64,000 nucleotides of DNA from Candidatus Dormiibacterota bacterium. GTDB taxonomy: Bacteria > Chloroflexota > Dormibacteria > Aeolococcales > Aeolococcaceae. A program made the position numbers and the translations under genes. The notes under the pieces are model-generated. The model had not been told where the DNA came from. It searched no databases and was given only the letters and a program-made list of their open reading frames with translations. Shown here piece by piece: positions 30,585 through 49,329 of the stretch. The stretch is from positions 11,085 through 75,084 of the forward strand of contig DAIUFS010000002.1 of assembly GCA_036844485.1 (NCBI GenBank). The letters run 5' to 3'. Positions within the stretch are counted from its first letter, which is position 1, and each line of letters begins with the position of its first letter.

Positions 30585-31340
30585 ATGATCGACAGAGACA
30601 AGTACGCGGCGGCGGCCATCGTGTCGCGCCGCGACCTCGCCCCCGACCTCTGGGTGGTGCGGATCCGACCGGACTGCGAGCTGCCGTTCCGCCCCGGCCA
30701 GTACGTGACCCTGGGGCTGGAGCTGGACGGCCACATCGTCGAGCGGCCGTACTCGATCGCCTCCGATCCCGCTGAGGATGAGATCGAGCTCTTCATCGAG
30801 CGCGTCCCCGACGGGGAGCTGTCGGCTCCGCTCCACGACGTTCCCATCGGGGACACCACCCTGGTGCGCAAGCGGTGCAAGGGGCTGTTCCTCAAGGATG
30901 CCCCGGTGCTCGACCAGGCGCACGTGTTCGTGGCGACGGTCACGGGCATCGCGCCCTTCGTCAGCATCCTGCGCAGCCTGGCCCGGCGCCAGGCCAGCGG
31001 CGAGTGGGTCGCTGACCAGCCGGTGGTGGCCCTCCAGGGCGCCAGCCGCTCCGAAGAGCTCGGCTACGAGGAGGAGTTGCGCGCGCTGGACGACGCCTGC
31101 GACTGGTTCACGTACGTGCCCACCATCAGTCGCCCCTGGGACGATCCCGAGTGGTCGGGCGAGACCGGCCGCGTCGAGGATGTCCTGCGCAAGCACGCCG
31201 ACCTGGCTGGGCTGCGCCCCGGCCATGGTGCCATCTATCTGTGCGGGAATCCCGAGATGATCGGCAAGGCCCACGGCATCATGCGGCGCCGCGGGTTTGG
31301 CGACAAGGAGATCCGCGAAGAGCAGTACTGGCCGGACTGA
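30585..31340 (+). CDS. ferredoxin--NADP(+) reductase (Fpr-type FAD/NAD(P)-binding oxidoreductase)
   Basis: RPGQYVTLGL, RPYSIAS (FAD motif), TGIAPF, and LCGNPEMI near a C-terminal aromatic residue. Confidence 0.85.
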   Translation: MIDRDKYAAAAIVSRRDLAPDLWVVRIRPDCELPFRPGQYVTLGLELDGHIVERPYSIASDPAEDEIELFIERVPDGELSAPLHDVPIGDTTLVRKRCKGLFLKDAPVLDQAHVFVATVTGIAPFVSILRSLARRQASGEWVADQPVVALQGASRSEELGYEEELRALDDACDWFTYVPTISRPWDDPEWSGETGRVEDVLRKHADLAGLRPGHGAIYLCGNPEMIGKAHGIMRRRGFGDKEIREEQYWPD

Positions 31341-31366: not shown

Positions 31367-32074
31367 CTATTTGAACCCGTAGCGGCCCTCGTGGAAGTCG
31401 CCGGTCTCGACCCACTGGTCGATGACAAGGTCGACCACCGCGTCGTTGACCTCGGAGAGGCCGAGCGTGCGAGCGTTGCCCTCGACCGCTTCGAGCACCT
31501 GCCCGCGAACGAAGTCGGGGATGCGCTCGAAGCGGCTCCGCGCCGAGTCCGTCCACGGCAGCGCGTCGCGGTCACGCTCTTCGATGGCGTGCGACACCCG
31601 GCCCCAGAGCTCGTACTTGACCTCCATCTCGACCGGGGTGATGGTGGTGCCCAGCCCCAGCTTGCGAGCCGTCCATTCGACTCGCCATCGGGTCAGGTCA
31701 CGGCAGAACTCGGGCACCTCCGCCAACCTCGCCTCTGCCTCCGGCGTCCAGCTGAACACCACCTCGGTGCCGGTGCGGTCACTGAGTGGGTGGCCATAGC
31801 CGAGCTTCTTGCCGAGCGTCCGGACGAAGAGGTCGGTGATCTCTTCGACGCGATCGCGCTGGGCACGGGCTTCCACCACCCGTTCGGCCATGCCCGCGGC
31901 GCGCTCCGGGTCGATCCGGCTCACTGCCGCGCGATCGCGTCCCGTCTCAGCCGCGCGGTGGGCGTCCGCGGTCCAGGTGAGGGGCGGGTGGGCGGCGCCG
32001 ACGTGCACCGGACAGCCGGCCTGGTCGGCGTCGTGCACCACCGGGCAGCCAGGCTCGTCTCGCGTTTCGGACAT
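31367..32074 (-). CDS. PCP_red-domain protein (two protochlorophyllide-reductase-B C-terminal-like domains) with an N-terminal double GCPV motif
   Basis: FSWTPEAEARLAEVPEFCRDLTRW... and LPWTDSARSRFERIPDFVRGQVLEAVEGNARTLGL match the W-T-x-E-A...IP-x-F-V-R pattern. The N-terminus has GCPVVH and GCPVHV. Confidence 0.7.
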   Translation of the reverse strand: MSETRDEPGCPVVHDADQAGCPVHVGAAHPPLTWTADAHRAAETGRDRAAVSRIDPERAAGMAERVVEARAQRDRVEEITDLFVRTLGKKLGYGHPLSDRTGTEVVFSWTPEAEARLAEVPEFCRDLTRWRVEWTARKLGLGTTITPVEMEVKYELWGRVSHAIEERDRDALPWTDSARSRFERIPDFVRGQVLEAVEGNARTLGLSEVNDAVVDLVIDQWVETGDFHEGRYGFK

Positions 32075-32255
32075 CGGTCAACCCTCCCACGTGTCGCCGC
32101 GCTCGAGGTGATTCTACGCTGAGGTCGGCGGCGTCCCGACGCGGGCGCTCAGGCCCATGACCCCGCTCGCTATCATCGGACGACGCGGTTGCGAGTGGCG
32201 CTCCGGACCGGTCGCGCGCGGCGGTCGACGTTGCATCTGCCTGGCAGGGGAGCGG

Positions 32256-34325
32256 ATGTACTCCACCCTCTACGTCGCCCTCGACAACTCCGAGCACTCG
32301 GACGCCGCCAGCACGGTCGCCCTGGAGCTCGCCTCCGCCTTCGATGCCCGCGTCATCGGCATGCACGTGTACGCGGCGCGGATGCACGACTACCGGTTCA
32401 AGCAGATGGAGTACACGCTCCCCGAGGAGTACCAGGACGAGGCCGAGCTGCTCCGCCAGCGGCGCATCCACGACAGCCTGATCAGCACCGGCCTGGAGCT
32501 GATCAGCGACAGCTACACCGACGTGCTCCGCTACCGCTGTCTGGAGCGCGACGTGCGCTTCGAGGCGCGCATGCGCGACGGGCGCAACTGGGAGGAGCTG
32601 GTCGCCGACGTCGACGAGAGCAGCGACGTCGACCTGGTGATCATGGGCGCGCTCGGCACCGGCGCGGTCAAGGAGTCGCAGCTGGGCAGCGTCACCGACA
32701 GGGTGGCGCGACGCATCCGGCGCGATCTGCTCATCATCCGCAGCACCGGCGACGCCGCCATGGAGGGCGGCATCCTGGTGGCCGTCGACGGCTCACCGCA
32801 GTCGTTCGCCGGCCTGCGCACCGCCCTCGTCCTCGGCAAAGCGCTCGGCAAGCGCGTCGAGGCGGTGGCCGTCTACGACCCCTACCTGCACTACGCCGTC
32901 TTCAACGGCATCGTCGACGTGCTCTCGGAGAAGGCCTCGAAGATCTTCCGGTTCAAGGAGCAGGAGGCGCTCCACGAGGAGATCATCGACACCGGGCTCG
33001 CCAAGATCTACGAGTCCCACCTCCGCGTGGCCCGTGCCACCGCCGCCGAGGAGGGGGTCGACCTGCCCATCACCCTTCTCGACGGCAAGGCGTTCGAGAG
33101 GATCCTGCGCCACGCTCGCGAGACCCGCCCCTGGCTGCTGGTGCTCGGCCGCATCGGCGTCCACTCGGACGCCGCGATGGACATGGGCAGCAACACCGAG
33201 CAGCTGCTCCGGCTCGCTCCCTGCAACGTTCTGGTCAGCAGTGGCACGTTCACCCCACCCATCGACGTCCGCGCCGACGCCTCGGTGGTGTGGACACCGG
33301 AGGCCGAGGAGCGGATGGCAGCGGTGCCGGGCGGGGCGAGGGGCCTGGCACGGACCGCCGTGCTGCGCTGGGCGATGGAGCGAGGCCACAGCGTGGTCTC
33401 GTCCGGCGACGTGGCCACCGCGCTCGACGAGCTGATGCCGTTCGCACGCACCATGCGCCGCATCGCCGAGACCGCGGCCACCGTCGACTCCGCTCAGCGG
33501 GCCATGGTCGACGAGCCGCAGATCCAGGATGCACGCGCCGTCTGTCGCACCTGCGGGTACGCGGCGAGGAGCGACACCCCGCATCGCTGCCCGGTGTGCG
33601 ACAGCGACGCCGGGGCGTTCGAGCGCCTCGACAGCGACGCGCTCCGGGCCACGGCGGCCGGGGAGGGGGACGCGGCGCAGATCGCTTTTGACGGCGCCAA
33701 GCTGGGCTGGACAGTCGAGGCGCGCCGGCTGCTGCAGCAGCTCCCCGCCGGCTACCTGCGCCGCCGCGTCAAGGCGATCGTCGAGAAGCATGCGCGGACG
33801 CGGCGGCTGCCGGCGATCACCGCCGAGGTGGCCGAGCCGTTCGTGGCGCCCGAGCTCGACGCTCTCGACGTGAATGCCGGGCCGCATCGAGCCCCCTTGG
33901 GCGTCGAGGGGCACACCGGACCGCACGTCGACCAGCGCCGGCGCCTTCCCTGGACCGATGAGGCAGACGACCGCATCGAGCGCATTCCCGCGGGCTTCCT
34001 GCGCAACCTCGCCACCGAGCAGATCGAGCGCCTCGCCGTTGCCCTGGGCGCTCCGGAAGTGGGCGTGCTGCACGTCGAGGCCGGCATCGCTGAGGCGCGC
34101 GCCCGGATGCAGCGCGACGGTGTCGGGGCCGATCCCGCGGCGACCTGTCCCGTCGGGGCCGAGGGGGCGCAGGCTGCACCTGGGTGTCCGGTCCATCACC
34201 AGGCGGAGGGCACGGGGCGTTCCGGCGGTGCGGCGGCACCCCGAGGTGGCTCTCTCAACGAGATAACCGCCCCGGTCATCGACGACCTCGGCAGACGCAC
34301 GACCACGGCGCTGCCAGACGCCTGA
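32256..34325 (+). CDS. multidomain protein: 2 x universal stress protein domain + 3 x PCP_red-like domain + rubredoxin-like zinc ribbon + C-terminal double CPV motif
   Basis: USP motifs: LYVALDNSEHS...VIMGALGTG; ILVAVDGSPQS...LLVLGRIGVHS. PCP_red-like: VVWTPEAEERMAAVP, LGWTVEARRLLQQLPAGYLRRRV, LPWTDEADDRIERIPAGFLRN. Zinc ribbon: CRTCGY..x10..CPVCDS. Start set at the ATG at 32256. Confidence 0.75.
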   Translation: MYSTLYVALDNSEHSDAASTVALELASAFDARVIGMHVYAARMHDYRFKQMEYTLPEEYQDEAELLRQRRIHDSLISTGLELISDSYTDVLRYRCLERDVRFEARMRDGRNWEELVADVDESSDVDLVIMGALGTGAVKESQLGSVTDRVARRIRRDLLIIRSTGDAAMEGGILVAVDGSPQSFAGLRTALVLGKALGKRVEAVAVYDPYLHYAVFNGIVDVLSEKASKIFRFKEQEALHEEIIDTGLAKIYESHLRVARATAAEEGVDLPITLLDGKAFERILRHARETRPWLLVLGRIGVHSDAAMDMGSNTEQLLRLAPCNVLVSSGTFTPPIDVRADASVVWTPEAEERMAAVPGGARGLARTAVLRWAMERGHSVVSSGDVATALDELMPFARTMRRIAETAATVDSAQRAMVDEPQIQDARAVCRTCGYAARSDTPHRCPVCDSDAGAFERLDSDALRATAAGEGDAAQIAFDGAKLGWTVEARRLLQQLPAGYLRRRVKAIVEKHARTRRLPAITAEVAEPFVAPELDALDVNAGPHRAPLGVEGHTGPHVDQRRRLPWTDEADDRIERIPAGFLRNLATEQIERLAVALGAPEVGVLHVEAGIAEARARMQRDGVGADPAATCPVGAEGAQAAPGCPVHHQAEGTGRSGGAAAPRGGSLNEITAPVIDDLGRRTTTALPDA

Positions 34326-34326
34326 C

Positions 34327-35580
34327 ATGCTCGGCCTCCAGGTCACCACGCCCGATTTCCCCGGCATCGGCAACAACGCGTCGGTGGGAATCGTCTTCCT
34401 GGTCCACATTCTCATCGCCGAGTTCAGCCTCGGGGCCATCACTCTGGCGGTGGCGGCGGAGTGGCACCACGTGCGCACCGGCGACGAGCGCACCGCCCGA
34501 TACGCGCGCAGTCTGGCCAACACCTATTACCTGGTCTTCAGCCTGGGTGCCACCTTCGCGGTGTTCGCCGTCGTGCTGCTCACCGGCCTGTGGGCCAACG
34601 AGTTCGGACAGCTGGTCAACAAGTTCGTCTGGCTGGTGGCGTTCGCCTTCAGCCTGTTCTTCGTGCTGGTGCCGCTCCTGGTCTGGTATCGCAATACCTT
34701 CACATCCATGGCTCCGCGCCGTCACGTCCTCCTCGGGACGGCGGTGGGCGTTCTCCAGAGCATGTTCATGGTGCTCATCGTTGGCATCGACGCGTACCTC
34801 ATCAATCCCGTCAACGCCGGGCTCACGGAACCGGCGTTCAACCCGGTGTACTGGCCGCTGCTCATCCACCGTCTCATCGGCAACGTGAGCTGGACCGCGC
34901 TGTTCTGCGCGGCGTACGCGGCTGTCCGGCTGCGCGGAGGTCGCGGTGACGCCCCAGAGCGCGCGTTCCAATCCTGGGCGGCCCGGGTCAACCTGCGCAT
35001 CGGCCTGCTCACCGGCCTGCTCATGCCGATCGTGGGCTTTGCGCTCATCGAGGTGATCCGCCAGAGCGAGCCGGGCTACTTCGACAACCTTCTCAGCGGC
35101 GGGACCGCCGCGTTCATGGTGGCCCAGGAGTGCCTGGTGGGGGTCATGTTCATCGGCGGCAACATCGCCCTGGCCAGCGAGGACGGCGGCCCGCGCGAGT
35201 GGTCGATGGCCAGCCGGGCAGCGATCGCCGTGTCGGTCGCCGGGATGACGCTGGCCGCCCTTCCCAGCGCGGTGCTCGGTGGCGACCTCAACGTGCTGCG
35301 CTACTGGGGGCTGGGCGCCGCCACCGTGGTGACCGCCGCGCACACGCTCTCACGTCTGCGCGGCCGCCGCCGGCGCCAGGACGACTCGCTGCGCGTCACC
35401 GGCTCGGTGTCGCGGATCGGGCGCAACGCGGTGCTCGCCGTCGGCACCGTTGCGGTGGTCACGTCCCTGCTGATGGGCTACATCAAGGAGCACGCCCGCG
35501 GCGACTACGCGGTGTATGGCGAGCTGCGCCAGGTCGACGCTCATCAGCCCTATCAACCCCCGCAGAGCCTCTACCCGTGA
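34327..35580 (+). CDS. cytochrome bd subunit I (CydA)-like membrane protein, paralogue 1, short Q-loop
   Basis: LVHILIAEF (TM1 His), LIHRLIGNV (TM5 His) and C-terminal GYIKEHARGDYAVYGEL (compare the CydA E-GRQPW-x-V-x-G motif). 417 aa, about 9 TM segments. Confidence 0.7.
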   Translation: MLGLQVTTPDFPGIGNNASVGIVFLVHILIAEFSLGAITLAVAAEWHHVRTGDERTARYARSLANTYYLVFSLGATFAVFAVVLLTGLWANEFGQLVNKFVWLVAFAFSLFFVLVPLLVWYRNTFTSMAPRRHVLLGTAVGVLQSMFMVLIVGIDAYLINPVNAGLTEPAFNPVYWPLLIHRLIGNVSWTALFCAAYAAVRLRGGRGDAPERAFQSWAARVNLRIGLLTGLLMPIVGFALIEVIRQSEPGYFDNLLSGGTAAFMVAQECLVGVMFIGGNIALASEDGGPREWSMASRAAIAVSVAGMTLAALPSAVLGGDLNVLRYWGLGAATVVTAAHTLSRLRGRRRRQDDSLRVTGSVSRIGRNAVLAVGTVAVVTSLLMGYIKEHARGDYAVYGELRQVDAHQPYQPPQSLYP

Positions 35581-35834
35581 CCCCGCTGCTGGTCGTCCGA
35601 GCCGCGGAATTCCAGGGCGCCTTGTACTACTCGCTGCTGCTGTTCGTCATCCTCTTTCTCGTCCTGCTGGGCATCGGCTACGCCCTGGTCGGAGTTCGCG
35701 GGCTCTGGCGCAGCGGCGAACGAGGTCCGGCCACAGTTCTCGGCGGAGCCCTCACCGTCGCCTTTCTCGCTCTCGTCGGGATGTACGTCGTCGCCGTCGG
35801 CGGGCTGTTCGCGGCTCCCGGGCTCGGGACGTGA
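35577..35834 (+). CDS. small two/three-TM membrane protein (85 aa), unknown function
   Basis: GTGA overlaps on both ends. Hydrophobic stretches LYYSLLLFVILFLVLLGIGYALV and ALTVAFLALVGMYVVAVGGLF. Confidence 0.5.
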   Translation: MTPLLVVRAAEFQGALYYSLLLFVILFLVLLGIGYALVGVRGLWRSGERGPATVLGGALTVAFLALVGMYVVAVGGLFAAPGLGT

Positions 35835-36328
35835 AGCAGCTCACCCGTCGCGAGATGCTGATCCGGGGCACCGGACTGGGCATGGGGCTGGTCGGGGTGA
35901 TGCTCAGCGTTCCCGCGGTGGGCTTCCTGCTCAGCCCCCTCTTCACCAAGCAGAAGGTTGTGTGGGTGACGGTCGGACCGATCGACAACGTGCCGGTCAA
36001 TCAGCCGACCCCCCTGATCGCGGAGGTCCCGGTTGGAACCGGGTACCCGACGCCGCCCGTCAAGCGAATTGTGTACGTGGTCAAGACCCCGGACGGGCAG
36101 ACCCGCGCGCTCAGCAACATCTGCACGCACATGCAGTGCGACGTGCACTGGGACCCTGCCCTGGGCAATTTTCTCTGCCCGTGCCACGGAGGCCTGTACG
36201 ACATCGAGGGCAGGAACGTTGGTGGGCCTCCCCCGCAACCACTTCCGCAGTGGGTGCACCGAATCCACACCGACGCCGAGGGCCGCACCATCCTCGAGAT
36301 CGAGAACAAGCTCGACGAGTCGATCTGA
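35831..36328 (+). CDS. Rieske [2Fe-2S] subunit with Tat signal
   Basis: Twin-arginine motif TRREMLIRG followed by a TM segment. Cluster ligands CTHMQC and CPCHGG. Confidence 0.88.
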   Translation: MKQLTRREMLIRGTGLGMGLVGVMLSVPAVGFLLSPLFTKQKVVWVTVGPIDNVPVNQPTPLIAEVPVGTGYPTPPVKRIVYVVKTPDGQTRALSNICTHMQCDVHWDPALGNFLCPCHGGLYDIEGRNVGGPPPQPLPQWVHRIHTDAEGRTILEIENKLDESI

Positions 36329-36339
36329 ATGCACCGCTC

Positions 36340-37536
36340 ATGATTGTCAGCCGCTGGCTCACACGACCACTGAAGGCGCGACTGCGCGCGGGGATGGAGT
36401 GGTTCGACGACCGCACCGGAGCCACCGAGCTTCTCCACAAGGGGCTCTATGAGGCAGTCCCCAAGAAGGGTGGCTGGGCGTATGCGCTGGGCAGCGCCAC
36501 CCTGGCGCTGATCCTGCTCCAGCTCTTCAGCGGGATCTTCCTGCTGCTCGACTACGTGCCCTCGGTCACCGACGCCTTCAACAGCCTGGATTACCTGCGC
36601 AGTGGCGACGCCTTCGGCGCCTGGGTGCGCGGGCTCCACCTCTGGGGCTCGTACATGCTCATCTTCGTGATCGGGCTGCACATGCTGCGCACCTTCCTCT
36701 CGGCGAGCTACAAGCGGCCGCGTGAGCTCAACTGGGTGACGGGAGCGCTCCTCTTCTTCCTGGTGCTTGGGCTGGCCATCACCGGCGCGATGCTGCCCTG
36801 GGACGAGGCGGCGTACTGGACGACCACGGTGGTGACCAACATCCCCCACTACCTCCCGGTGATCGGGGACGGCATCCGGACGCTCTGGCGCGGGGGGGAC
36901 TTCGTCGGACCGATCACCCTGACGCGCACCTTCGCCATCCATGTCTGGGTGCTGCCCTTCCTGCTGTTCACCCTCATCGGCGGTCACCTCTACCTTCTCC
37001 GTCGCCACGGCGAGTTCGGTGCCTGGGTCAACTACGACAGCGCTCCCGGCGAGGAAGGGGAGAGGCAGATCGCCGAGCGGATTCGCCGCGCCGAGCCCCC
37101 CTACCCGACCAAGCGGATCTCACGCCGCTACGCGGCGCCGAGCGAGACGGTGCCGTTCTTTCCCGACCAGATCTTCAAGGACGTGGTGTTGAGCACCGCC
37201 CTGGTCGCGGTCATCTTCGTCATGGGACTGATCTCCGGAGCGCCGCTCGACCAGGCCGCCAATCCGGCGACGTTCAGCTACGTGCCCACGCCGGAGTGGT
37301 TCTTCCTCCCCCTCGACCAGTTCATGGTCGTGGCACCGGCCAACCCGCTCATCGCCATTGGGGTCTTCGGCGTTCTCGGCCTGGGCGCAGCCCTGATGGT
37401 GCTCCTGCCGTTCATCGATCGCTCCCCGGAGCGCCGTCCACTGCGCCGCCCTGAGGTGATCGTGCCCGCCCTCTTCATGGCCTTCACGGTGATCTTCTTC
37501 GCTGTTCTCGGCATCAACCGGCTGTACAACCTGTGA
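36340..37536 (+). CDS. cytochrome b (fused b6 + subunit-IV-like) of a Rieske/cyt b complex
   Basis: Two bis-His pairs (HLWGSYMLIFVIGLH; HVWVLPFLLFTLIGGH) and a Qo-site PEWF (PEWY-type) motif. Confidence 0.9.
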   Translation: MIVSRWLTRPLKARLRAGMEWFDDRTGATELLHKGLYEAVPKKGGWAYALGSATLALILLQLFSGIFLLLDYVPSVTDAFNSLDYLRSGDAFGAWVRGLHLWGSYMLIFVIGLHMLRTFLSASYKRPRELNWVTGALLFFLVLGLAITGAMLPWDEAAYWTTTVVTNIPHYLPVIGDGIRTLWRGGDFVGPITLTRTFAIHVWVLPFLLFTLIGGHLYLLRRHGEFGAWVNYDSAPGEEGERQIAERIRRAEPPYPTKRISRRYAAPSETVPFFPDQIFKDVVLSTALVAVIFVMGLISGAPLDQAANPATFSYVPTPEWFFLPLDQFMVVAPANPLIAIGVFGVLGLGAALMVLLPFIDRSPERRPLRRPEVIVPALFMAFTVIFFAVLGINRLYNL

Positions 37537-38978
37537 GCCCGCGCATCCTTCTCTCATCCCTGTCGCCGGTGAGCGGCAACATCGTCACCAACGGCGTCCT
37601 GGTCGCCGTGGTGGCGCTTCTGCACATCCAGATCGCCGCCTTTCTCACCGGATCATCGACGCTGGCGCTGGTCTCCGAAGCGGTTTCGATGGCCCGCGGC
37701 GACGAGCGCCACGGCCGCGTCGCCCACATGCTGGTGAAGGGGCAGGTCTACGTCTTCAGCTTCGGCTCGGCGGTGGCCATCTTCTTCATGATCTTCGTGC
37801 TCCTCGGCCTGTGGGGCATCTTCTGGACCGCCTTGCAGCAGATCGCCTTCTGGGTGCTGGTCTTCGAGGCGGCCATGTTTCTCACCGAGATCGTGCTGCT
37901 GTACAGCCTGTACGCCAACTGGGATCGGCTGCAGGCGCATCGCCGTGCCCGCCTCGCCATGCTGCTCCTGCTCAACATCTCGCTGTGGTGGCAGATGTTC
38001 CTCATCGACGTGGTGGCGTCCTTCATGCTCACGCCCAACGGCGGCGACGTCAGCATCCTCAATCAGATCCTCAACCCCACCAACCTGCCGCTGACCATCC
38101 ATCGCACCATCGGCAACGTCGCCTGGGCGGGCGCGGTGGTCGCCTTCATCGGTGGCTTCAACTACCTGCGTCTCACCAGGCGGCAGCGTGAGCCCACACC
38201 CGACGCTCCGCAGTCGATGCGACCGCTGCGGTCGATCGGCGCCATGGCCGCCGGCCACCTGGAATGGGAGGCACAGCGCACGGAGATTCTCCACTGGGAG
38301 TGGGTGGCGCACTGGGGAGTGATCTGGGCGGTGGCGATGACACTGCTCCAACCATGGGTCGGCTACTCCTACGCCAAGGAGGTCCAGCTCCACGCCTACG
38401 GAGCCTGGTACACGATGATGTTCGGCGACCTCTCCAACGTGTTTCTGCTGCAGATCTTCCTGCTCGGCTCGATCTTCACACTCGGAGCGCTGTACTTCTG
38501 GCGTCGCATGGTGCGCTCCGGTGCCGCGCATGCCCGCCGTCAGCTGATCCTGGCGGTGGCCCTCATCCTCATGACCGTGCTGGCGGTGCAGCCGGCGTGG
38601 TTCGCTCCGACCTACGCGGATGCCATCGCCGCCGCGGGTAACCGGGCATGGTGGGATGGGGGCCTGCTCAACCCCATCGGCGACTTCATCCCCTTCAAGG
38701 CGGCGGCCCTGATCGGCATGGTGCTGTTCGGCCTCTGGTCGGTGACCAGCTATCTGGCGGCGGTGTCGCGCGGCCGGGTCAAGCCCGGCGGCAGCGGCCG
38801 GGGTGCGCAGCGAGCCGCGCTGGTGATCGGCGTGGCGGTGAGCATGATGATGCTGGTCATGGGCGTGATCCGTGAGCATTCACGCCAGCCCTACCTTGTT
38901 TACGGCGAGATCACGCTGCACCAGCAGATCACCAACCACGCGCCGTCGCCGACCTCTCTCCAACAGAGCCAACCGTGA
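37533..38978 (+). CDS. cytochrome bd subunit I (CydA)-like membrane protein, paralogue 2
   Basis: LLHIQIAAF, VFEAAMFLTE, TIHRTIGNV and C-terminal GVIREHSRQPYLVYGEI. Aligns without gaps to paralogue 1 over TM1-TM5. Confidence 0.7.
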   Translation: MSPRILLSSLSPVSGNIVTNGVLVAVVALLHIQIAAFLTGSSTLALVSEAVSMARGDERHGRVAHMLVKGQVYVFSFGSAVAIFFMIFVLLGLWGIFWTALQQIAFWVLVFEAAMFLTEIVLLYSLYANWDRLQAHRRARLAMLLLLNISLWWQMFLIDVVASFMLTPNGGDVSILNQILNPTNLPLTIHRTIGNVAWAGAVVAFIGGFNYLRLTRRQREPTPDAPQSMRPLRSIGAMAAGHLEWEAQRTEILHWEWVAHWGVIWAVAMTLLQPWVGYSYAKEVQLHAYGAWYTMMFGDLSNVFLLQIFLLGSIFTLGALYFWRRMVRSGAAHARRQLILAVALILMTVLAVQPAWFAPTYADAIAAAGNRAWWDGGLLNPIGDFIPFKAAALIGMVLFGLWSVTSYLAAVSRGRVKPGGSGRGAQRAALVIGVAVSMMMLVMGVIREHSRQPYLVYGEITLHQQITNHAPSPTSLQQSQP

Positions 38979-39403
38979 GGATCCCGCTGGGCGCAGTCGC
39001 GCTACGCATTCCCATCTTCCTCTCCGCGCATGAGGAGTTGCGCACAGCCATCGAGCCGCCCTGGCCGCGATGGATGCGTGACCTCTACCAGCTCGAGCAG
39101 GCGCAGGACGAGGGCATCGACGTCGACGCCGAGGAGACCACCGTTCCGGCAGCGCTCGGCGCGCTGTCGTCACGGCTGCGCCAGCGGCTGGAGCTGATCT
39201 CCTCGGTTGCCAGTGGACTGCGGCGCGACGGATGGGCTCTTGACATCGACGGCGACTGTCTGGTGGCCAGCAGGGTGAGCAACCCGCGGCACGCGCTGGA
39301 GATGCTCGAGGACGCGGGACTGGCGGGACCGCTGTGCGCCGTAGCCGACCTCGACGAGTCCGGGTGGCCGCGGCTGTACATCGGTCTGGCGAGCACGGCA
39401 TGA
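38975..39403 (+). CDS. hypothetical protein (142 aa)
   Basis: GTGA overlap upstream and ATGA overlap downstream. No family recognised. Confidence 0.5.
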   Translation: MRIPLGAVALRIPIFLSAHEELRTAIEPPWPRWMRDLYQLEQAQDEGIDVDAEETTVPAALGALSSRLRQRLELISSVASGLRRDGWALDIDGDCLVASRVSNPRHALEMLEDAGLAGPLCAVADLDESGWPRLYIGLASTA

Positions 39404-39771
39404 GCGCCACTGTCCTCATTGCCGAGGACGAACCGATGATCGGGCGGATCCTCGCCGAGAAGCTGACCCGCGAGGGCTATAAGGTGTTGCGGACCGCCAC
39501 CATCGAGGGCTTGATGTCCGCGCTGGCAATCTCTGACGTCGCGCTCGTCGATGCCACTCTCGACGGCGACGGCATCGACGCCATGCAGGGTCTCGCGGCC
39601 GCGGCGATCCATCCCCGCGCCGGCTGGTTCGCCATGGTGGAGAGCCGCGCCGCCGACCAGGGCATCCGTGCGGTTCGCGCCGGCGCCGCGGGGGTGATCA
39701 TCAAGCCGTTCAAGCCGACGGCGGTGGCGGCCAAGGTGGCCACCCTGCTCGCCACGGTGGCGGTGCCGTGA
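39400..39771 (+). CDS. stand-alone response-regulator receiver domain
   Basis: VLIAEDEP (acidic pair), ALVDATLDGDG (acceptor Asp context), VIIKPF (conserved Lys). Confidence 0.8.
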   Translation: MSATVLIAEDEPMIGRILAEKLTREGYKVLRTATIEGLMSALAISDVALVDATLDGDGIDAMQGLAAAAIHPRAGWFAMVESRAADQGIRAVRAGAAGVIIKPFKPTAVAAKVATLLATVAVP

Positions 39772-40742
39772 CCCTGCTCGCCGGCGCCGTCGCGGACGAT
39801 CCCACGGACGAGCACCTGGCCACCGAGGTCGTGCGCGCCCGAGGTGTGCTGCGTCGTTACCGCAATGGCCGTGGGGTGGGCCCGGTGGACCTCTGTCTGC
39901 GGGCCGGCGAGGCGTTCGCTCTGATGGGCCGCAACGGCTCCGGCAAGACCACGCTGCTCCGCCTGCTCGCCACCGTGACGCGTCCGCACAGCGGCGAGCT
40001 GCGCTGGTTCGGCGGCGACGCGACGCGGGCCCGGGCACATCTCGGGCTGGCTCTCGACGCGGCCATGGAGGACGCCGGGCTGACGGGACGGCAGGCGACC
40101 CACTTCTGGTGCGCGCAGTGGATCGCCGATGCGGCGGAGGTGTCGTCCCGCACCGATCTGGTGTTGCGGAGGCTGGGACTGGCCGGGGCCGCCGATGAGC
40201 CCGTCGGCTCGTACTCGTACGGGATGCGCCGCCGCCTCGCCCTTGCCGCCGCCGTTGTCCACGAGCCCGCTCTGGCGCTGCTCGACGAACCCACCGCCGG
40301 GCTCGACCCCGACGGGTGCACCGAGCTGGGCGAGGTGATCGCCGAGCGATCACGGCACGGCCTCAGCACGGTGATCGCCAGCAACGATCCCGGCTTCGTC
40401 GAGGCGGTCGCCGACCGCGTCGCGTTCCTCGAGGAGGGGGCTGTGGTGCGCTGCGCGTCGCCGCGTGACCTGCTCGCCGGCCTCCCCCAGGGACGTGTCG
40501 CGGAGCTTGTCATCGAGGAAGGTTGCTCTTTGGCGGCGCTGCGCGCGGTGCCGGGTGTCGTGGATGTGACCGACGACGGCGGCGCAGCCAGGGTTCGCTT
40601 CGACGGCGACCACACCATCGCCGCCCTGGTTGCGGCGGCCGACGCGCCGGGCGGCCGCCTCCGCGAGCTGCGCCTGCGCCGCCCCGACCTCGCCGACTGC
40701 TTCCATGACCTCACCGGTCGCGCCCTGCGGGAACAGACGTGA
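39768..40742 (+). CDS. ABC transporter ATP-binding protein (ABC-2/DrrA-like)
   Basis: Walker A GRNGSGKTT, signature YSYGMRRRL, Walker B LALLDEPTAGLD. Confidence 0.85.
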   Translation: MTLLAGAVADDPTDEHLATEVVRARGVLRRYRNGRGVGPVDLCLRAGEAFALMGRNGSGKTTLLRLLATVTRPHSGELRWFGGDATRARAHLGLALDAAMEDAGLTGRQATHFWCAQWIADAAEVSSRTDLVLRRLGLAGAADEPVGSYSYGMRRRLALAAAVVHEPALALLDEPTAGLDPDGCTELGEVIAERSRHGLSTVIASNDPGFVEAVADRVAFLEEGAVVRCASPRDLLAGLPQGRVAELVIEEGCSLAALRAVPGVVDVTDDGGAARVRFDGDHTIAALVAAADAPGGRLRELRLRRPDLADCFHDLTGRALREQT

Positions 40743-41497
40743 TCGGAGATGCCGCCGCCCTGCGGGCGACCGCCTGGCGCTCGCGCAGGATGCCGCGCAG
40801 CGTGGCCGCGCGCGAGCTCGCCATCGTGCTCAGCCGGCCACGTGCGCTGGCCATCAAGGCGGGGCTGCCCCTTGCCCTGGCGGTCGTGCTGGTCGCGGGT
40901 CATGCACCGACCTTCTGGGCGGGGATGCTGCTCACCGTCCTGGTCGCCATGGTCGGTGCGGTGGGCACGGCGGTGACGGTGAGCCGGGCCAGGGACGCCG
41001 GTTTTCTGACACGACTGGCAGCAACTCCCGGGTCTCGGCCGCGGTTGCTGGTCGGGTGGGTCCTGGCCGCCGCCGCGGTGGACGTGGTCCAGCTGCTACC
41101 GGTGGCGCTGGCTGCCTGGATCGACGGAGGCGGAGGCGCCACCGAGCTCGTGGTGCTGGTCACCGTTCTCGCCGCCACACTGGTGGTCACCAATGTGCTG
41201 GGCAGTCTCATCACCCTGGCCGCGGCGAGCGCCGCCGAGGTGCTGCTCGATGTCGTCGTCGTGCTCGCGCCCCTTCTCTACCTGGGCGGCCTGTTCACCG
41301 GTGTCCCGGCAGCCGGATGGCGAGCCTGGGTAGCCGCGGTCGACCCGTTCAGCCATCTCCACTCCGCATTCATCGGCGTGCTCGGGGGATCGGCGACGTA
41401 TCCCGGTGGCGTCGATGTGGTCGCGGCGCTGGGAGCGGCAGCGGCGGCGACCGCCGTCCTCGCCGGTCTCAGCCGGCGCATCCTGGAACGTGATTGA
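40739..41497 (+). CDS. ABC-2 type transporter permease
   Basis: Six hydrophobic segments. GTGA overlap with the ATPase gene. Confidence 0.62.
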   Translation: MIGDAAALRATAWRSRRMPRSVAARELAIVLSRPRALAIKAGLPLALAVVLVAGHAPTFWAGMLLTVLVAMVGAVGTAVTVSRARDAGFLTRLAATPGSRPRLLVGWVLAAAAVDVVQLLPVALAAWIDGGGGATELVVLVTVLAATLVVTNVLGSLITLAAASAAEVLLDVVVVLAPLLYLGGLFTGVPAAGWRAWVAAVDPFSHLHSAFIGVLGGSATYPGGVDVVAALGAAAAATAVLAGLSRRILERD

Positions 41498-41498
41498 T

Positions 41499-42161
41499 GT
41501 GCCGCGGCGCGTCCGCCGGGGCGCCGCGCTGCTGGTTGCCATGACCGCGCTGTCCGGTTGTGGGTCTGTGTCCTCCGTCCTCGATGCCGGCGCGCTGGGC
41601 CTGCCGTCGCGCAGCTCACCCGCCGCCCTGGCCACCGCCACCGTGTCGACCAGTCCAGACGGCGGCATCTACCGCAACCCCGACCACCTCGAGGTCATGC
41701 TGGTGGCGCGACACAACGTCGACTCCATCGCCGGCCAGCTCGGATCAGCGTCCTCGACGTGGACGCAGCTGCGCAGCTTCGGCGACTTCACCGTGATCGC
41801 CCTGCGTCTTCGCGATGACGGCAAGGTGAGCTCGGATCCGCAGCTCGCCGACCTGCAGATGGCCAGCGACTACGCCCCCACAGGCACCGCCAGCGGACCG
41901 CTGCGCCACTTCTACCACCCCACCTTTCCGCTGGCGCTGGTCGCCGACTCGAACCCCGGCGACGGCTGCAGCATCCATCTCGATCCCGGCCACAGCGGCG
42001 TCGCCATCCTCATCTACCCGCCGGTCAACCTGCCCAGCACGCTGGTGTGGGGCCGCTTCGGGGACTTCGTGCTCAGCGTGCCCACCGGCGGAGCGCTGCC
42101 GCCGCTGTCGGGCGGGCTGCACGCCGAGGCCTGCACCCGGCCCGCGGCGTCGCCGACGTGA
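41499..42161 (+). CDS. predicted lipoprotein, unknown function
   Basis: Signal peptide with lipobox (RRGAALLVAMTALSGCG). The start could be the GTG at 41490 or at 41499. Confidence 0.6.
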   Translation: MPRRVRRGAALLVAMTALSGCGSVSSVLDAGALGLPSRSSPAALATATVSTSPDGGIYRNPDHLEVMLVARHNVDSIAGQLGSASSTWTQLRSFGDFTVIALRLRDDGKVSSDPQLADLQMASDYAPTGTASGPLRHFYHPTFPLALVADSNPGDGCSIHLDPGHSGVAILIYPPVNLPSTLVWGRFGDFVLSVPTGGALPPLSGGLHAEACTRPAASPT

Positions 42162-42727
42162 GCTCGCGCTCGCGAGCGCGCCGCCGTCAGCGCGTCGAGC
42201 TGCCCAGCGCCGGCCAGACGGTGGTCTCGCTGGTGCTCCACCGCGTGGAGGAGGGTGGCCCCTGGCCGCTGACCCGGGTCCTCACCGCGCTGGGCGGGGA
42301 CGCGGTCGAGCGCATCGGTGTGGCTCGGGCCCTCGGGGATCGCCGCGGTGTGCCGCTGGTGCACTCCCAGGAGGTGCGCTGGCGCGAGCACGCGCTCTTC
42401 CTCGAGGCCCGGCACGGGCGTGACGGTGTCGATGAGCTCAGCCTGGAGATGCCTCCGTGGGACGACCTCGTGGCCACGGTCGCCGATGACGAGGTCTGGC
42501 GGCTCATCGACACCGTCGCGGTCGCCGCCGACGCGCAGTTCGGGTCGATCGGAGACGGCGAGCCGCCTGAGACGGTGCTGCCGGACGACGCCTCGACCCT
42601 CCGCGCCCAGCTGCGACGCCATCTCGCCCTGCTCCTGCCGGAGTGGACGGGGGAGGATGTCGCCGCGGCCGGGGCCACCCCGGCGCGCGTGCTCGACAGC
42701 AGCGGCCTGGTGGTGGTGACCGGGTGA
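42158..42727 (+). CDS. hypothetical protein (189 aa)
   Basis: GTGA overlaps at both ends. Acidic, soluble-looking. No family recognised. Confidence 0.5.
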   Translation: MSSRSRARRRQRVELPSAGQTVVSLVLHRVEEGGPWPLTRVLTALGGDAVERIGVARALGDRRGVPLVHSQEVRWREHALFLEARHGRDGVDELSLEMPPWDDLVATVADDEVWRLIDTVAVAADAQFGSIGDGEPPETVLPDDASTLRAQLRRHLALLLPEWTGEDVAAAGATPARVLDSSGLVVVTG

Positions 42728-43080
42728 GCCTCCACGCCCGCCTGGGGGTTGCGGTGTTGCTTGTGGCAGCGGTGGGAGCCCTCCTCGCTCTGCTCGCGCG
42801 CAACCGTCCGGGTGCCGTTCCCACCGTGCGTGTCTTCGTCAGGCTCTGCGCCGCCGCCGCCGCCGTGGAGGCGTTCATCGGGCTGGCCATGGTGGTCGCC
42901 GGCCAGCGCCCCGCCGAGGCCATCCACTTCTTCTACGGCGCGGCGACCGCCATCCCCATCCCCGCCGCCGACCTGCTGGCACGCCGCGTCCACCCGCAGT
43001 CGGAGATGCTCTACCTGCTCGCCGGGGCAGTCGCCACCGTGCTGTTCGGTCTTCGCGCCGTGGCCACAGGCAGCTCGTAA
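42724..43080 (+). CDS. small four-TM membrane protein (118 aa)
   Basis: The GTGA overlap makes it the last gene of the chain. Hydrophobic profile. Confidence 0.5.
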   Translation: MSLHARLGVAVLLVAAVGALLALLARNRPGAVPTVRVFVRLCAAAAAVEAFIGLAMVVAGQRPAEAIHFFYGAATAIPIPAADLLARRVHPQSEMLYLLAGAVATVLFGLRAVATGSS

Positions 43081-49034: not shown

Positions 49035-49111
49035 GGCGCGGGAGTCCCGCGACGATGAGGCCCTCGCCGCGTGAGGGACCCACCTCCCGTTTCGCGCGGG
49101 CTTGCAGTGGT

Positions 49112-49262
49112 TCCGCTCCGACGGAGGTCTCCTGGCTCACGGATCAGTGCAGCTCGGCCGTCTTCCCAGGACGCGCGTCCCAGTGACCGGTGGCCGGCTG
49201 CTCCCCGTTGACAGTTGCGCGACAGCTCCGGATTTCCACCGGATTCCCTGTCGCCAGAGCGC
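49112..49262 (-). promoter_or_regulatory. cobalamin (B12) riboswitch aptamer
   Basis: Minus strand reads ...ACAGGGAATCCGGTGGAAATCCGGAGCTGTCGCGCAACTGTCAACGGGGAG...GCCACCGGTCACTGGGA...CCTGGGAAGACGG...GATCCGTGAGCCAGGAGACCTCCGTCGGAGC. This matches the conserved core and the B12 box. An expression platform (49035-49111) leads to a GAGGAG SD. Confidence 0.85.
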
Positions 49263-49329
49263 GGTTCGGGAAGTGTGCCACACGGCCGTCAGCGCCGGTG
49301 AGGCGTGCGACGTCCCTGCCCCGGTAGGG

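What the first reader, a model, noticed from the sequence alone, without database searches (positions are those of the whole stretch)
38975..43080. Uncharacterised accessory module: unknown 142-aa protein, receiver-only regulator, ABC-2 exporter, lipoprotein, unknown 189-aa protein and a 4-TM protein
Seven genes are translationally coupled to the respiratory core. Three of them (38975-39403, 42158-42727, 42724-43080) and the lipoprotein (41499-42161) match no family I can recognise.

A receiver domain with an intact acidic pocket, acceptor Asp and Lys (39400-39771) has no output domain and no kinase in the operon.

ABC-2 systems next to respiratory genes are usually cofactor or lipid exporters or maturation factors; CydDC and Ccm are the precedents. 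This may be a dedicated maturation/export system for the bd-like complex.
Basis: inference. Interest (0 to 1): 0.5.

Follow-up and report, generated by a model that had tools for sequence, protein, structure and literature searches.

The report
Accessory genes of Dormibacterota bd-like oxidase
Seven tightly packed genes (an odd ABC-2 transporter, a lipoprotein, an atypical receiver domain and four proteins with no known relatives) always travel with an uncharacterised cytochrome bd-like/Rieske-cytochrome b respiratory enzyme in the soil phylum Dormibacterota, so they almost certainly serve that enzyme, but what they do for it is still unknown.

Summary
All seven genes are real, lie at the stated coordinates and are chained by 4-nt GTGA/ATGA overlaps. 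They form the 3' half of a 13-gene operon (32157-43080) from a Candidatus Dormibacteraeota MAG.

- **Core:** it fits the published OR-N5 layout, two CydA-like genes flanking Rieske and cytochrome b.
- **Co-inheritance:** g1-g6 sit beside the core in 52 related loci, down to about 37% identity. The one exception is an internally deleted contig. The 4-TM gene g7 is clade-variable (17 of 26 loci with room).
- **Orphans:** g1, g5, g6 and g7 match no Pfam, NCBIfam or PDB family. The AlphaFold models of g1 and g6 are confident and have no significant Foldseek match. g5 has only 23 relatives among 1.84 billion representative proteins.

Two points are new:
- **ABC ATPase:** it keeps Walker A and B but carries invariant non-canonical residues: Q-loop Asp, signature S-Y/F-G, H-loop Asn.
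- **Receiver domain:** it lacks the conserved Thr/Ser throughout. In 8 of 32 orthologues the acceptor Asp is Glu.

"Dedicated to the complex" is well supported. "Maturation/export" stays an inference; a regulatory or structural role is a serious rival. I rate this a new variant of a known kind, of moderate interest.

The parts
38975..39403 (+). g1: 142-aa soluble orphan protein with an invariant PPWP-x-W motif (residues 28-33). It always lies directly downstream of the second CydA-like gene.
   Evidence: No Pfam, NCBIfam or PDB match. Homology search found 71 clusters, named ones all Dormibacter*, lowest identity 46%. The metagenome scan reached 38%. AF2 best model pLDDT 87.7, but the other four models scored 54-68. 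Best Foldseek PDB hit E 0.013, TM 0.39 or lower. Start overlaps the upstream stop as GTGA.
39400..39771 (+). g2: 123-aa stand-alone receiver (REC) domain, atypical.
   Evidence: Pfam Response_reg 6.6e-10. This copy has E9, D10, D51 and K102. Among 32 distinct orthologues D51 is D23/E8/N1 and D10 is D22/G8. The CheY-T87 position (V80) is L, V, C or I, never T or S. KPFKP is nearly invariant.
39768..40742 (+). g3: 324-aa ABC ATPase of the DrrA/ABCA class, with a C-terminal domain and a non-canonical catalytic site.
   Evidence: ABC_tran 3.2e-26. TIGR01188 drrA scores 155 bits, below its 312-bit cut-off. Nearest PDB entries: ABCA7/ABCA4 NBD2 (1e-40 to 1e-36), 4yer over the full length (6e-31), NosF (9e-28). 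Walker A, Walker B with catalytic Glu, and the D-loop are invariant. Q-loop Asp97, signature [YLF]-S-[YF]-G-[ML] and H-loop Asn206 are invariant in 32 orthologues. The ECF ATPase of the same window is canonical.
40739..41497 (+). g4: 252-aa ABC-2 permease with six hydrophobic segments.
   Evidence: ABC2_membrane 2.3e-8 and ABC2_membrane_3 3.3e-6. Hydropathy profile. The loop R-D-A-G-x-L-x-R-L-x-x-T-P after TM2 is conserved. No PDB sequence match.
41499..42161 (+). g5: 220-aa lipoprotein (223 aa if it starts at 41490), extracytoplasmic orphan.
   Evidence: Signal peptide plus lipobox L-S-G-C; Cys21 is nearly invariant. TSPDGGIY-NPD is invariant or nearly so. Two further Cys are largely conserved. 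Only 23 relatives at E<=1e-3 among 1.84 billion representatives. No Pfam or PDB match.
42158..42727 (+). g6: 189-aa soluble orphan alpha/beta protein with a cluster of invariant polar residues (H69, S70, E93, D118, D133, E135, R154, H155).
   Evidence: 76 clusters, named ones all Dormibacter*, lowest identity 39%. Alignment A1. AF2 pLDDT 87.9, pTM 0.85, five concordant models. No Foldseek match better than E 1e-3 in PDB or BFVD, TM 0.42 or lower; weak recurring AdoMetDC-like and PsbP/Mog1/Eag-like hits. No Pfam or PDB sequence match.
42724..43080 (+). g7: 118-aa membrane protein with 3-4 hydrophobic segments and invariant His4 and His68. Last gene of the operon, and clade-variable.
   Evidence: Hydropathy; alignment A4. 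Only sub-threshold hits from hydrophobic segments. Present in 17 of 26 loci with room. Absent in the L017-L019 clade. The next gene is convergent.
32157..38978 (+). Context, the respiratory core of the same operon: USP-USP-rubredoxin-like-PCP_red protein (32157-34325), CydA-like 1 (34327-35580), 85-aa 2-TM ORF (35577-35834), Rieske (35831-36328), cytochrome b (36340-37536), CydA-like 2 (37533-38978).
   Evidence: Pfam hits; gene starts and overlaps. [quoted passage not shown] CydA-like 2 has His31, Glu112/Glu119, His136 and His190.

Best explanation
The seven genes are the accessory half of a 13-gene operon. The operon encodes an OR-N5-type quinol oxidase: two cytochrome bd-like subunits with a Rieske protein and cytochrome b.

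I think the module is a dedicated service machine for that enzyme, built around a type-V (ABC-2) transporter.
- The ATPase g3 and permease g4 form the transporter.
- They hand a hydrophobic ligand (haem, quinone or a lipid), or remove one, at the outer face of the membrane.
- The membrane-anchored lipoprotein g5 receives or presents that ligand there.
- On the cytoplasmic side, the atypical receiver g2 and the two orphan proteins g1 and g6 dock on the ATPase or on the oxidase and set its slow, gated ATP cycle.
- g7 is an optional small membrane partner, possibly haem-binding.

Shown: the genes are real, co-transcribed by arrangement, co-inherited with the core, and have the domain features described.

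Inferred: that anything is transported, what the cargo is, and who touches whom.
For: **Arrangement and co-inheritance**
- Tight 4-nt overlaps run from the core through g7. They are kept in loci where the accessory proteins are only 37-59% identical.
- Co-inheritance holds in 44/44, 39/41 and 25/26 testable loci. It spans 15 Dormibacterota species genomes plus metagenome contigs.
- No homologue of g1 or g6 was seen elsewhere.

**Transporter features**
- g3 keeps Walker A, Walker B with the catalytic Glu, and the D-loop.
- g3 aligns over its full length with the DrrA-class protein 4yer. Its best solved relatives are lipid-exporting ABCA NBDs and NosF.
- g4 is a typical six-TM ABC-2 permease.
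- g5 has a lipobox and extra conserved Cys, which places it on the outer face.

**Precedents (established knowledge)**
- CcmAB and NosFY with the lipoprotein NosL are ABC-2-type systems that mature respiratory enzymes.
- LprG with Rv1410c pairs a lipoprotein with a transporter for lipid export.
Against: - No cargo, binding site or assembly phenotype is known.
- g3 scores below the curated cut-offs of DrrA, CcmA and every other named family.
- Its invariant Q-loop Asp, signature S-Y/F-G and H-loop Asn replace residues that canonical ABC pumps need for fast hydrolysis.
- g5 has no invariant His, Met or Cys ligand set.
- The OR-N paper does not mention such genes for OR-N5 operons. I could not inspect OR-N5 operons outside Dormibacterota.
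Confidence: 0.35

Rival explanations
1. The module is an energy- or stress-sensing regulatory and structural attachment, not a transporter. The degenerate ATPase dimer acts as an ATP-binding switch. Together with the pseudo-receiver, g1, g6 and the USP protein encoded first in the operon, it gates or stabilises the oxidase, for example during dormancy. g4, g5 and g7 are simply membrane subunits of the supercomplex.
For: - g3 has invariant non-canonical Q-loop, signature and H-loop residues, while another ABC ATPase in the same window is canonical.
- The receiver lacks the conserved Thr/Ser. In 8 of 32 orthologues it has Glu at the acceptor position and Gly in the acidic pocket. No kinase is nearby.
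- Translational coupling fits co-produced subunits.
- The accessory proteins diverge at rates similar to the CydA-like subunits.
- Precedent from general knowledge: the lipoprotein LpqE is a structural subunit of the mycobacterial CIII2CIV2 supercomplex.
Against: - The catalytic Glu, Walker A and D-loop are strictly kept, which fits real turnover.
- g4 keeps the ABC-2 hallmark loop.
- As far as I know, no ABC-2 pair is a fixed subunit of a respiratory complex.
Confidence: 0.25
2. The module is an ordinary DrrAB/NatAB-type efflux or self-protection pump that merely shares the operon. It would export a toxic by-product or a xenobiotic under the conditions in which this oxidase is expressed. The orphan proteins would be lineage-specific add-ons.
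For: The best family scores of g3 and g4 are DrrA and DrrB (TIGR01188 2.4e-45; TIGR00025 3.2e-7). ABC-2 efflux pairs are very common.
Against: - Strict co-inheritance and overlap-coupling with the core in every testable locus, across deep divergence.
- Four dedicated orphan partners that are never found elsewhere.
- Non-canonical catalytic motifs.
- Scores lie far below the family cut-offs.
Confidence: 0.12
3. g6, possibly with g1, is an enzyme that modifies a cofactor of the oxidase in the cytoplasm, for example a haem or quinone modification. The ABC-2 system then exports or inserts the product.
For: g6 has a confident compact fold with invariant His, Ser, Glu, Asp and Arg residues (H69, S70, E93, D133, E135, R154, H155), typical of an active or metal site. 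Weak similarity to the AdoMetDC-like sandwich recurs in two structure libraries.
Against: All structural matches are non-significant (TM 0.42 or lower). No sequence family was found. I could not measure whether the invariant residues cluster in space.
Confidence: 0.1

Closest known systems
NosDFYL (maturation system of nitrous oxide reductase)
   Same: An ABC ATPase and an ABC-2-type permease, plus a membrane-anchored lipoprotein, encoded next to the respiratory enzyme they serve. NosF is among the closest solved relatives of g3 (7o0y_B, 8.6e-28).
   Different: No NosD-like periplasmic protein. g4 hits ABC2_membrane and ABC2_membrane_3 only; no other family reached E<=1. g5 shows no NosL match and no conserved metal ligands. 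g3 has non-canonical catalytic motifs. There are three extra cytoplasmic proteins.
CcmAB (haem-handling ABC system of cytochrome c maturation, System I)
   Same: A separate ATPase and a six-TM ABC-2-clan permease dedicated to a respiratory cofactor. g3 matches TIGR01189 ccmA at 3.9e-28.
   Different: The score of 98.5 bits is below the 131.6-bit cut-off. No CcmB-family hit for g4. No ccmC/D/E-like genes among the operon's products.
DrrAB / NatAB-type ABC-2 efflux pumps
   Same: Best-scoring curated families for both g3 (TIGR01188) and g4 (TIGR00025, TIGR01247). A DrrA-like C-terminal domain and a C-terminal motif (PDLADCFHDLTG) resembling the LEDVF-type motif of ABC-2 ATPases that I recall from memory.
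   Different: Scores are about half the cut-offs. The Q-loop Gln, first signature Gly and H-loop His are replaced family-wide. The genes are embedded in, and co-inherited with, a respiratory operon.
Atypical or pseudo-receiver domains (plant PRR/TOC1, Streptomyces atypical response regulators, FrzS)
   Same: REC fold with the phospho-acceptor Asp replaced by Glu in some members, loss of other switch residues, and no cognate kinase.
   Different: Here the domain stands alone at 123 aa. Most members, including this window's, still have the Asp. Whether it is phosphorylated is untested.
OR-N5a/b cytochrome bd-like enzymes (Murali, Gennis and Hemp, bioRxiv 10.1101/2021.01.16.426971)
   Same: The core upstream of the module has the published layout: two CydA-like paralogues with petA and petB/D between them.
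   Different: The parts of that paper I read do not mention accessory genes such as an ABC-2 system, receiver or lipoprotein. The reference example is Rubrobacter, not Dormibacterota.

Membership tests
ABC transporter ATPase (canonical catalytic NBD) | Walker A, Walker B with catalytic Glu, and D-loop | tested here: met
   GxNGxGK[TS], LLDEP and AGLD are invariant in 32 orthologues. Pfam ABC_tran 3.2e-26.
ABC transporter ATPase (canonical catalytic NBD) | Q-loop Gln, signature LSGGQ and H-loop His | tested here: not met
   Asp97, [YLF]-S-[YF]-G-[ML] and Asn206 are invariant. The residue correspondence is confirmed by alignment to ABCA7/ABCA4 NBDs.
ABC-2 (type V) exporter, DrrAB subfamily | ABC-2 permease with six TM segments | tested here: met
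   PF01061 34.3 bits, above its 26.9-bit cut-off. Six hydrophobic segments.
ABC-2 (type V) exporter, DrrAB subfamily | Scores above the curated DrrA/DrrB model cut-offs | tested here: not met
   TIGR01188 155.1 against 312.45 bits; TIGR00025 30.1 against 146.9; TIGR01247 19.4 against 223.
CcmAB haem exporter | CcmA equivalog score, CcmB-family permease, and ccmCDE partners | tested here: not met
   TIGR01189 98.5 against 131.6 bits. No CcmB hit for g4. No such genes among the operon's products.
NosDFYL | NosY-type permease, NosD periplasmic protein and NosL copper lipoprotein | tested here: not met
   Only the ATPase resembles NosF. g4, g5 and the other products give no NosY, NosD or NosL hit at E<=1. 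g5 has no invariant Met, His or Cys ligand set.
CydDC | Heterodimer of fused TMD-NBD half-transporters (type IV fold) | tested here: not met
   Here the NBD and an ABC-2 TMD are separate genes. The family definition is from general knowledge.
Phosphorylatable response-regulator receiver domain | REC fold above the Pfam threshold | tested here: met
   PF00072 39.6 bits, above its 30.2-bit cut-off.
Phosphorylatable response-regulator receiver domain | Conserved acidic pocket, acceptor Asp, Thr/Ser and Lys | tested here: not met
   The window copy has E9, D10, D51 and K102. The Thr/Ser position is V/L/C/I in all 32 orthologues. D51 is Glu in 8 and Asn in 1; D10 is Gly in 8.
Phosphorylatable response-regulator receiver domain | Cognate histidine kinase | tested here: inconclusive
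   None among the Pfam-scanned genes from 23.6 to 49.0 kb. Orphan kinases elsewhere in the genome cannot be excluded. A hybrid kinase lies about 3 kb upstream of the operon in L017, separated by divergent genes.
Bacterial lipoprotein | Signal peptide with lipobox Cys | tested here: met
   RRVRR, then a hydrophobic stretch, then L-S-G-C. The Cys is nearly invariant in 13 relatives. Hydrophobic segment 10-28.
OR-N5 cytochrome bd-like operon (context) | Two CydA-like paralogues in one operon with petA and petB/D | tested here: met
   Pfam Cyt_bd_oxida_I, Rieske and Cytochrome_B hits, and the gene order. Definition. Phylogenetic placement among the OR-N subfamilies was not tested.

The most novel reading that the evidence does not exclude
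The ABC-2 pair has a family-wide re-engineered catalytic site. Together with the pseudo-receiver, the two orphan cytoplasmic proteins and the lipoprotein, it could be a permanent part of a new respiratory supercomplex. In that complex, ATP binding (not transport) would gate a bd-like/Rieske-cytochrome b quinol oxidase, or electron flow would drive the transporter. Either way it would be an ABC module physically and functionally fused to a terminal oxidase, with at least two previously unseen protein folds.
Probability: 0.1. Interest if true: 0.8.

Novelty: new variant of a known kind. Interest (0 to 1): 0.45.

Why it matters
**The organisms.** From general knowledge, Dormibacterota are abundant in nutrient-poor soils, including Antarctic desert soils. 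They are uncultured and are thought to persist on trace gases. How they respire at low energy flux is therefore of interest.

**The enzyme.** The operon is present in all 15 species-level Dormibacterota genomes recovered here. It encodes an OR-N5-type bd-like enzyme for which the literature I read reports no biochemical characterisation.

**What was added.**
- Half of the operon is a co-inherited accessory set. This defines what has to be co-expressed to reconstitute the enzyme.
- Four protein families without any known relative are flagged, two of them with confident new-looking folds.
- An ABC ATPase is identified whose Q-loop, signature and H-loop are all replaced yet strictly conserved. 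That is a natural experiment on the ABC catalytic cycle.

**If the maturation reading is right,** this would be a third example, after Ccm and Nos, of an ABC-2 system dedicated to building a respiratory enzyme.

Tried and rejected
- **Family scans.** Pfam and NCBIfam scans of the seven proteins, and of every member of the g1, g5, g6 and g7 alignments, gave no family for the four unknowns. The weak Cytochrom_B561 and COX15-CtaA hits of g7 cover only hydrophobic stretches and were set aside as noise.
- **PDB sequence profiles.** Searches with A1-A4 gave nothing meaningful.
- **Structure searches.** Foldseek of g6 (PDB and BFVD) and g1 (PDB) gave no match better than E 1e-3, TM 0.42 or lower. The AdoMetDC-like and PsbP/Mog1/Eag-like resemblances of g6, and the ACT/ferredoxin-like resemblance of g1, are too weak to use.
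- **g1 against g6.** A profile-profile comparison shows they are unrelated.
- **Apparent fusion proteins.** P0278 (CydA-like + g1 + REC) and P0347 (g5 + g6) looked like evidence of physical association. They are frameshifted assembly artefacts.
- **Caldilineae locus L016.** The hit is spurious.
- **Plasmids.** A tblastn of the CydA-like protein against plasmids, hoping for an annotated OR-N5 locus, found no match.
- **Literature.** Searches for Dormibacterota respiration, or for accessory genes of bd-like/Rieske operons, found nothing specific.
- **NosL-like metallochaperone idea for g5.** Rejected because no ligand-type residues are invariant.
- **ECF transporter downstream.** Considered as part of the module and rejected. 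It is convergent, sits in a separate operon behind a cobalamin riboswitch, and is absent downstream in L009 and L013.
- **Not possible.** I could not inspect OR-N5 operons of other phyla such as Rubrobacter.

Full report
**1. What is there**

The window has about 70% G+C. The exact protein sequences of the seven genes are in public collections under a Candidatus Dormibacteraeota MAG. NCBI accessions HEY8756568-574 directly follow the core proteins HEY8756563-567.

They are protein-coding on three counts:
- GC3 is 0.82-0.91 in the called frames.
- Differences from orthologues concentrate at codon position 3, to the same degree as in the CydA-like gene upstream.
- Each has many conserved orthologues.

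Six of the seven junctions are 4-nt GTGA/ATGA overlaps. The permease/lipoprotein junction is a 1-nt gap, or an 8-nt overlap with NCBI's 223-aa start.

| Coordinates | Product |
|---|---|
| 32157-34325 | USP-USP-rubredoxin-like-PCP_red protein |
| 34327-35580 | CydA-like 1 |
| 35577-35834 | previously unnoticed 85-aa 2-TM ORF |
| 35831-36328 | Rieske protein with a twin-arginine-like N-terminus |
| 36340-37536 | cytochrome b |
| 37533-38978 | CydA-like 2 |

These assignments rest. The unit is therefore a 13-gene operon, 32157-43080. It has no internal promoter-like site, and terminator-like sites do not exceed chance.

The operon ends at g7. The next gene is convergent and belongs to a minus-strand operon that starts behind a cobalamin riboswitch at 49106-49305 and ends with an ECF transporter.

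**2. The core is a known kind**

Murali, Gennis and Hemp (bioRxiv 10.1101/2021.01.16.426971) define an OR-N family of CydA-like proteins that lack the quinol site. [quoted passage not shown] The window's core has that layout.

CydA-like 2 carries His31, Glu112/Glu119, His136 and His190. This resembles the a-type residue pattern in their Table S6. CydA-like 1 has no paired glutamates. The parts of that paper I read do not mention accessory genes.

**3. The module is inherited with the core**

Four sources of related loci all showed the same collinear cluster:
- A genome scan with CydA-like 2 returned 15 Dormibacterota species genomes. Every contig long enough carries the full collinear set.
- More distant relatives, 53-56% identical in CydA-like 2, have the same order including the small 2-TM ORF, and again with 4-nt overlaps. 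One of these is labelled Candidatus Angelobacter, Acidobacteriota, by NCBI.
- A metagenome scan seeded with the g1 alignment found 33 contigs, with g1 down to 38% identity.
- The most divergent g6 homologue (39%) also sits in the complete cluster.

Tally over 52 loci, some of them redundant:

| Test | Result |
|---|---|
| CydA-like 2 with room downstream, followed by g1 | 44 of 44 |
| g1 with room upstream, preceded by CydA-like 2 | 39 of 41 |
| Loci with at least 3.9 kb downstream that have g2-g6 | 25 of 26 |
| Loci with room that have g7 | 17 of 26 |

The two misses upstream of g1 are L014 and L022. L014 is a frameshifted long-read assembly. L022 is an internally deleted or chimeric contig, in which core and module are both truncated.

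No g1 or g6 homologue was seen in any other context. The ECF genes downstream are not part of the unit; they are absent downstream in L009 and L013.

**4. The four unknowns are true orphans**

- **g1 (142 aa).** No Pfam, NCBIfam or PDB sequence match. It has an invariant PPWP-x-W motif. The best AlphaFold model has pLDDT 87.7, but the other four models score 54-68. No Foldseek hit is better than E 0.013.
- **g6 (189 aa).** No family match. The model is confident and reproducible: pLDDT 87.9, pTM 0.85. Invariant polar residues (H69, S70, E93, D118, D133, E135, R154, H155) look like an active or binding site. Nothing in PDB or BFVD is better than E 1e-3, and TM is 0.42 or lower. Only weak AdoMetDC-like and PsbP/Mog1/Eag-like resemblances recur.
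- **g5 (220 aa).** It has a signal peptide and lipobox, an invariant TSPDGGIY-NPD motif and two further, largely conserved Cys. This fits an extracytoplasmic, disulfide-bonded protein, with no invariant metal-ligand set. An exhaustive phmmer search of 1.84 billion representatives found only 23 relatives.
- **g7 (118 aa).** A small membrane protein with invariant His4 and His68 and no credible family.
- g1 and g6 are unrelated to each other.

**5.

*(a) The ABC ATPase g3.* It belongs to the DrrA/ABCA class. Its nearest solved relatives are ABCA7/ABCA4 NBD2, the full-length DrrA-class protein 4yer, and NosF. It scores below every curated family cut-off.

Across 32 distinct orthologues:
- Walker A, Walker B with the catalytic Glu, and the D-loop are invariant.
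- The Q-loop Gln is always Asp (D97).
- The signature is [YLF]-S-[YF]-G-[ML] instead of LSGGQ.
- The H-loop His is always Asn (N206).

The ECF ATPase in the same window is canonical, so this is gene-specific. From what is established about ABC motifs, these three positions contact Mg2+/water and the gamma-phosphate, and the H-loop His is needed for fast hydrolysis in several ABC transporters. Conserved replacements point to a remodelled, probably slow or gated cycle, not to decay.

*(b) The receiver g2.* This copy has the acidic pair, D51 and K102. Across the family the picture differs:
- The CheY-T87 position is always hydrophobic.
- D51 is Glu in 8 and Asn in 1 of 32 orthologues.
- D10 is Gly in the same 8 sequences.
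- The best-conserved surfaces are alpha1 and beta5-alpha5.

No kinase turned up among the scanned genes flanking the operon. A phosphorylation-independent adaptor role is therefore plausible, at least in part of the family.

**6. How it most likely works**

Shown: one co-transcribed, co-inherited unit, with three membrane or surface components and four cytoplasmic ones.
- Membrane or surface: ABC-2 permease, lipoprotein, small His-bearing membrane protein.
- Cytoplasmic: ATPase, receiver, g1, g6.

Inferred, about 0.35 confidence: a dedicated ABC-2 machine services the oxidase. It moves a hydrophobic ligand (haem, quinone or lipid) to or from the outer face. The lipoprotein acts there, and the cytoplasmic trio controls a slow ATP cycle. 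The precedents are CcmAB and NosFY-NosL (general knowledge).

The main rival, about 0.25, is that nothing is transported. The degenerate ATPase and pseudo-receiver would form an ATP- or stress-sensing regulatory or structural attachment of the supercomplex. That would fit the USP protein encoded first in the operon. It also fits the precedent of LpqE, a lipoprotein that is a structural subunit of the mycobacterial CIII2CIV2 supercomplex (general knowledge).

Two less likely readings remain:
- An ordinary efflux pump that merely shares the operon (0.12).
- A cofactor-modifying enzyme role for g6 (0.10).

**7. Comparison with known systems and verdict**

The module works most like NosDFYL or CcmAB but is a member of neither. 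The CcmA cut-off is not reached, there is no CcmB- or NosY-type permease, and there are no NosD, NosL or CcmCDE equivalents. It is not CydDC-like at all, because CydDC consists of fused type-IV half-transporters.

It is a new variant of the general kind "ABC-2 system attached to a respiratory enzyme". It comes with four orphan protein families and an unusual ATPase.

Interest is moderate at 0.45. The parts are novel and the host enzyme is uncharacterised, but no function is established and the organisms are uncultured.

**8. Limits**

- The homology searches for g1 and g6 were word-seeded and could miss very distant relatives.
- The single genome-collection scan reached only Dormibacterota, so OR-N5 operons in other phyla were not inspected.
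- No structure could be predicted for g5 or g7.
- Model coordinates could not be analysed for residue clustering.

Noticed in passing
window 35577-35834 (+): An 85-aa ORF with two hydrophobic segments lies between CydA-like 1 and the Rieske gene, with GTGA overlaps on both sides. It is conserved as an 85-90-aa gene in distant loci (L017, L019, L053).
   Followed up: partly
window 32157-34325 (+), 31367-32074 (-), 30585-31340 (+): The first gene of the operon encodes a 722-aa protein with two USP domains, a rubredoxin-like Cys4 motif and three PCP_red domains (the C-terminal domain of protochlorophyllide reductase BchB). A second protein with two PCP_red domains is transcribed divergently just upstream. 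A ferredoxin-NADP-reductase-like gene about 0.8 kb upstream of the operon is syntenic in several genomes. PCP_red domains in a non-phototroph next to a haem enzyme are unexplained.
   Followed up: partly
window 49106-49305 (-), operon down to 43087: A cobalamin riboswitch (Rfam RF00174, 98.5 bits) heads a minus-strand operon: two unknown proteins, a diphthamide-synthase-like protein, and ECF T, A and S components. That operon converges on g7 and marks the 3' boundary of the respiratory operon.
   Followed up: partly
window 37533-38978 and 34327-35580: CydA-like 2 carries the paired glutamates (E112/E119) and His31, His136 and His190 of the a-type OR-N5 residue pattern. CydA-like 1 has no paired glutamates. 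Going by the accession order of the Rubrobacter reference pair, the a-type gene comes first there, so the order here may be reversed.
   Followed up: partly
L017 (GCA_035569495.1, DATMMX010000039.1): A MAG labelled Candidatus Angelobacter (Acidobacteriota) by NCBI carries the same cluster at 45-68% identity. This is either horizontal transfer or a taxonomic or binning mislabel of a Dormibacterota genome.
   Followed up: no
L022 782-4301: One metagenome contig joins a complete USP gene and the first 78 codons of CydA-like 1 directly to g1, g2 and a truncated g3. It lacks the rest of the core and g4-g7. It is either a decayed locus, with core and module lost together, or an assembly chimera.
   Followed up: partly
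proteins P0278 and P0347: Database proteins that look like fusions (CydA-like 2 + g1 + REC, 744 aa; g5 + g6, 334 aa) contain stretches of out-of-frame sequence. They are frameshift artefacts of error-prone assemblies, not real fusions.
   Followed up: yes
L017 1-1722: In the distant clade, a hybrid histidine kinase (GAF-HisKA-HATPase-REC) and an OmpR-type regulator lie about 2.4-4 kb upstream of the operon, separated from it by three divergent genes. No equivalent was found near the operon in the window.
   Followed up: no
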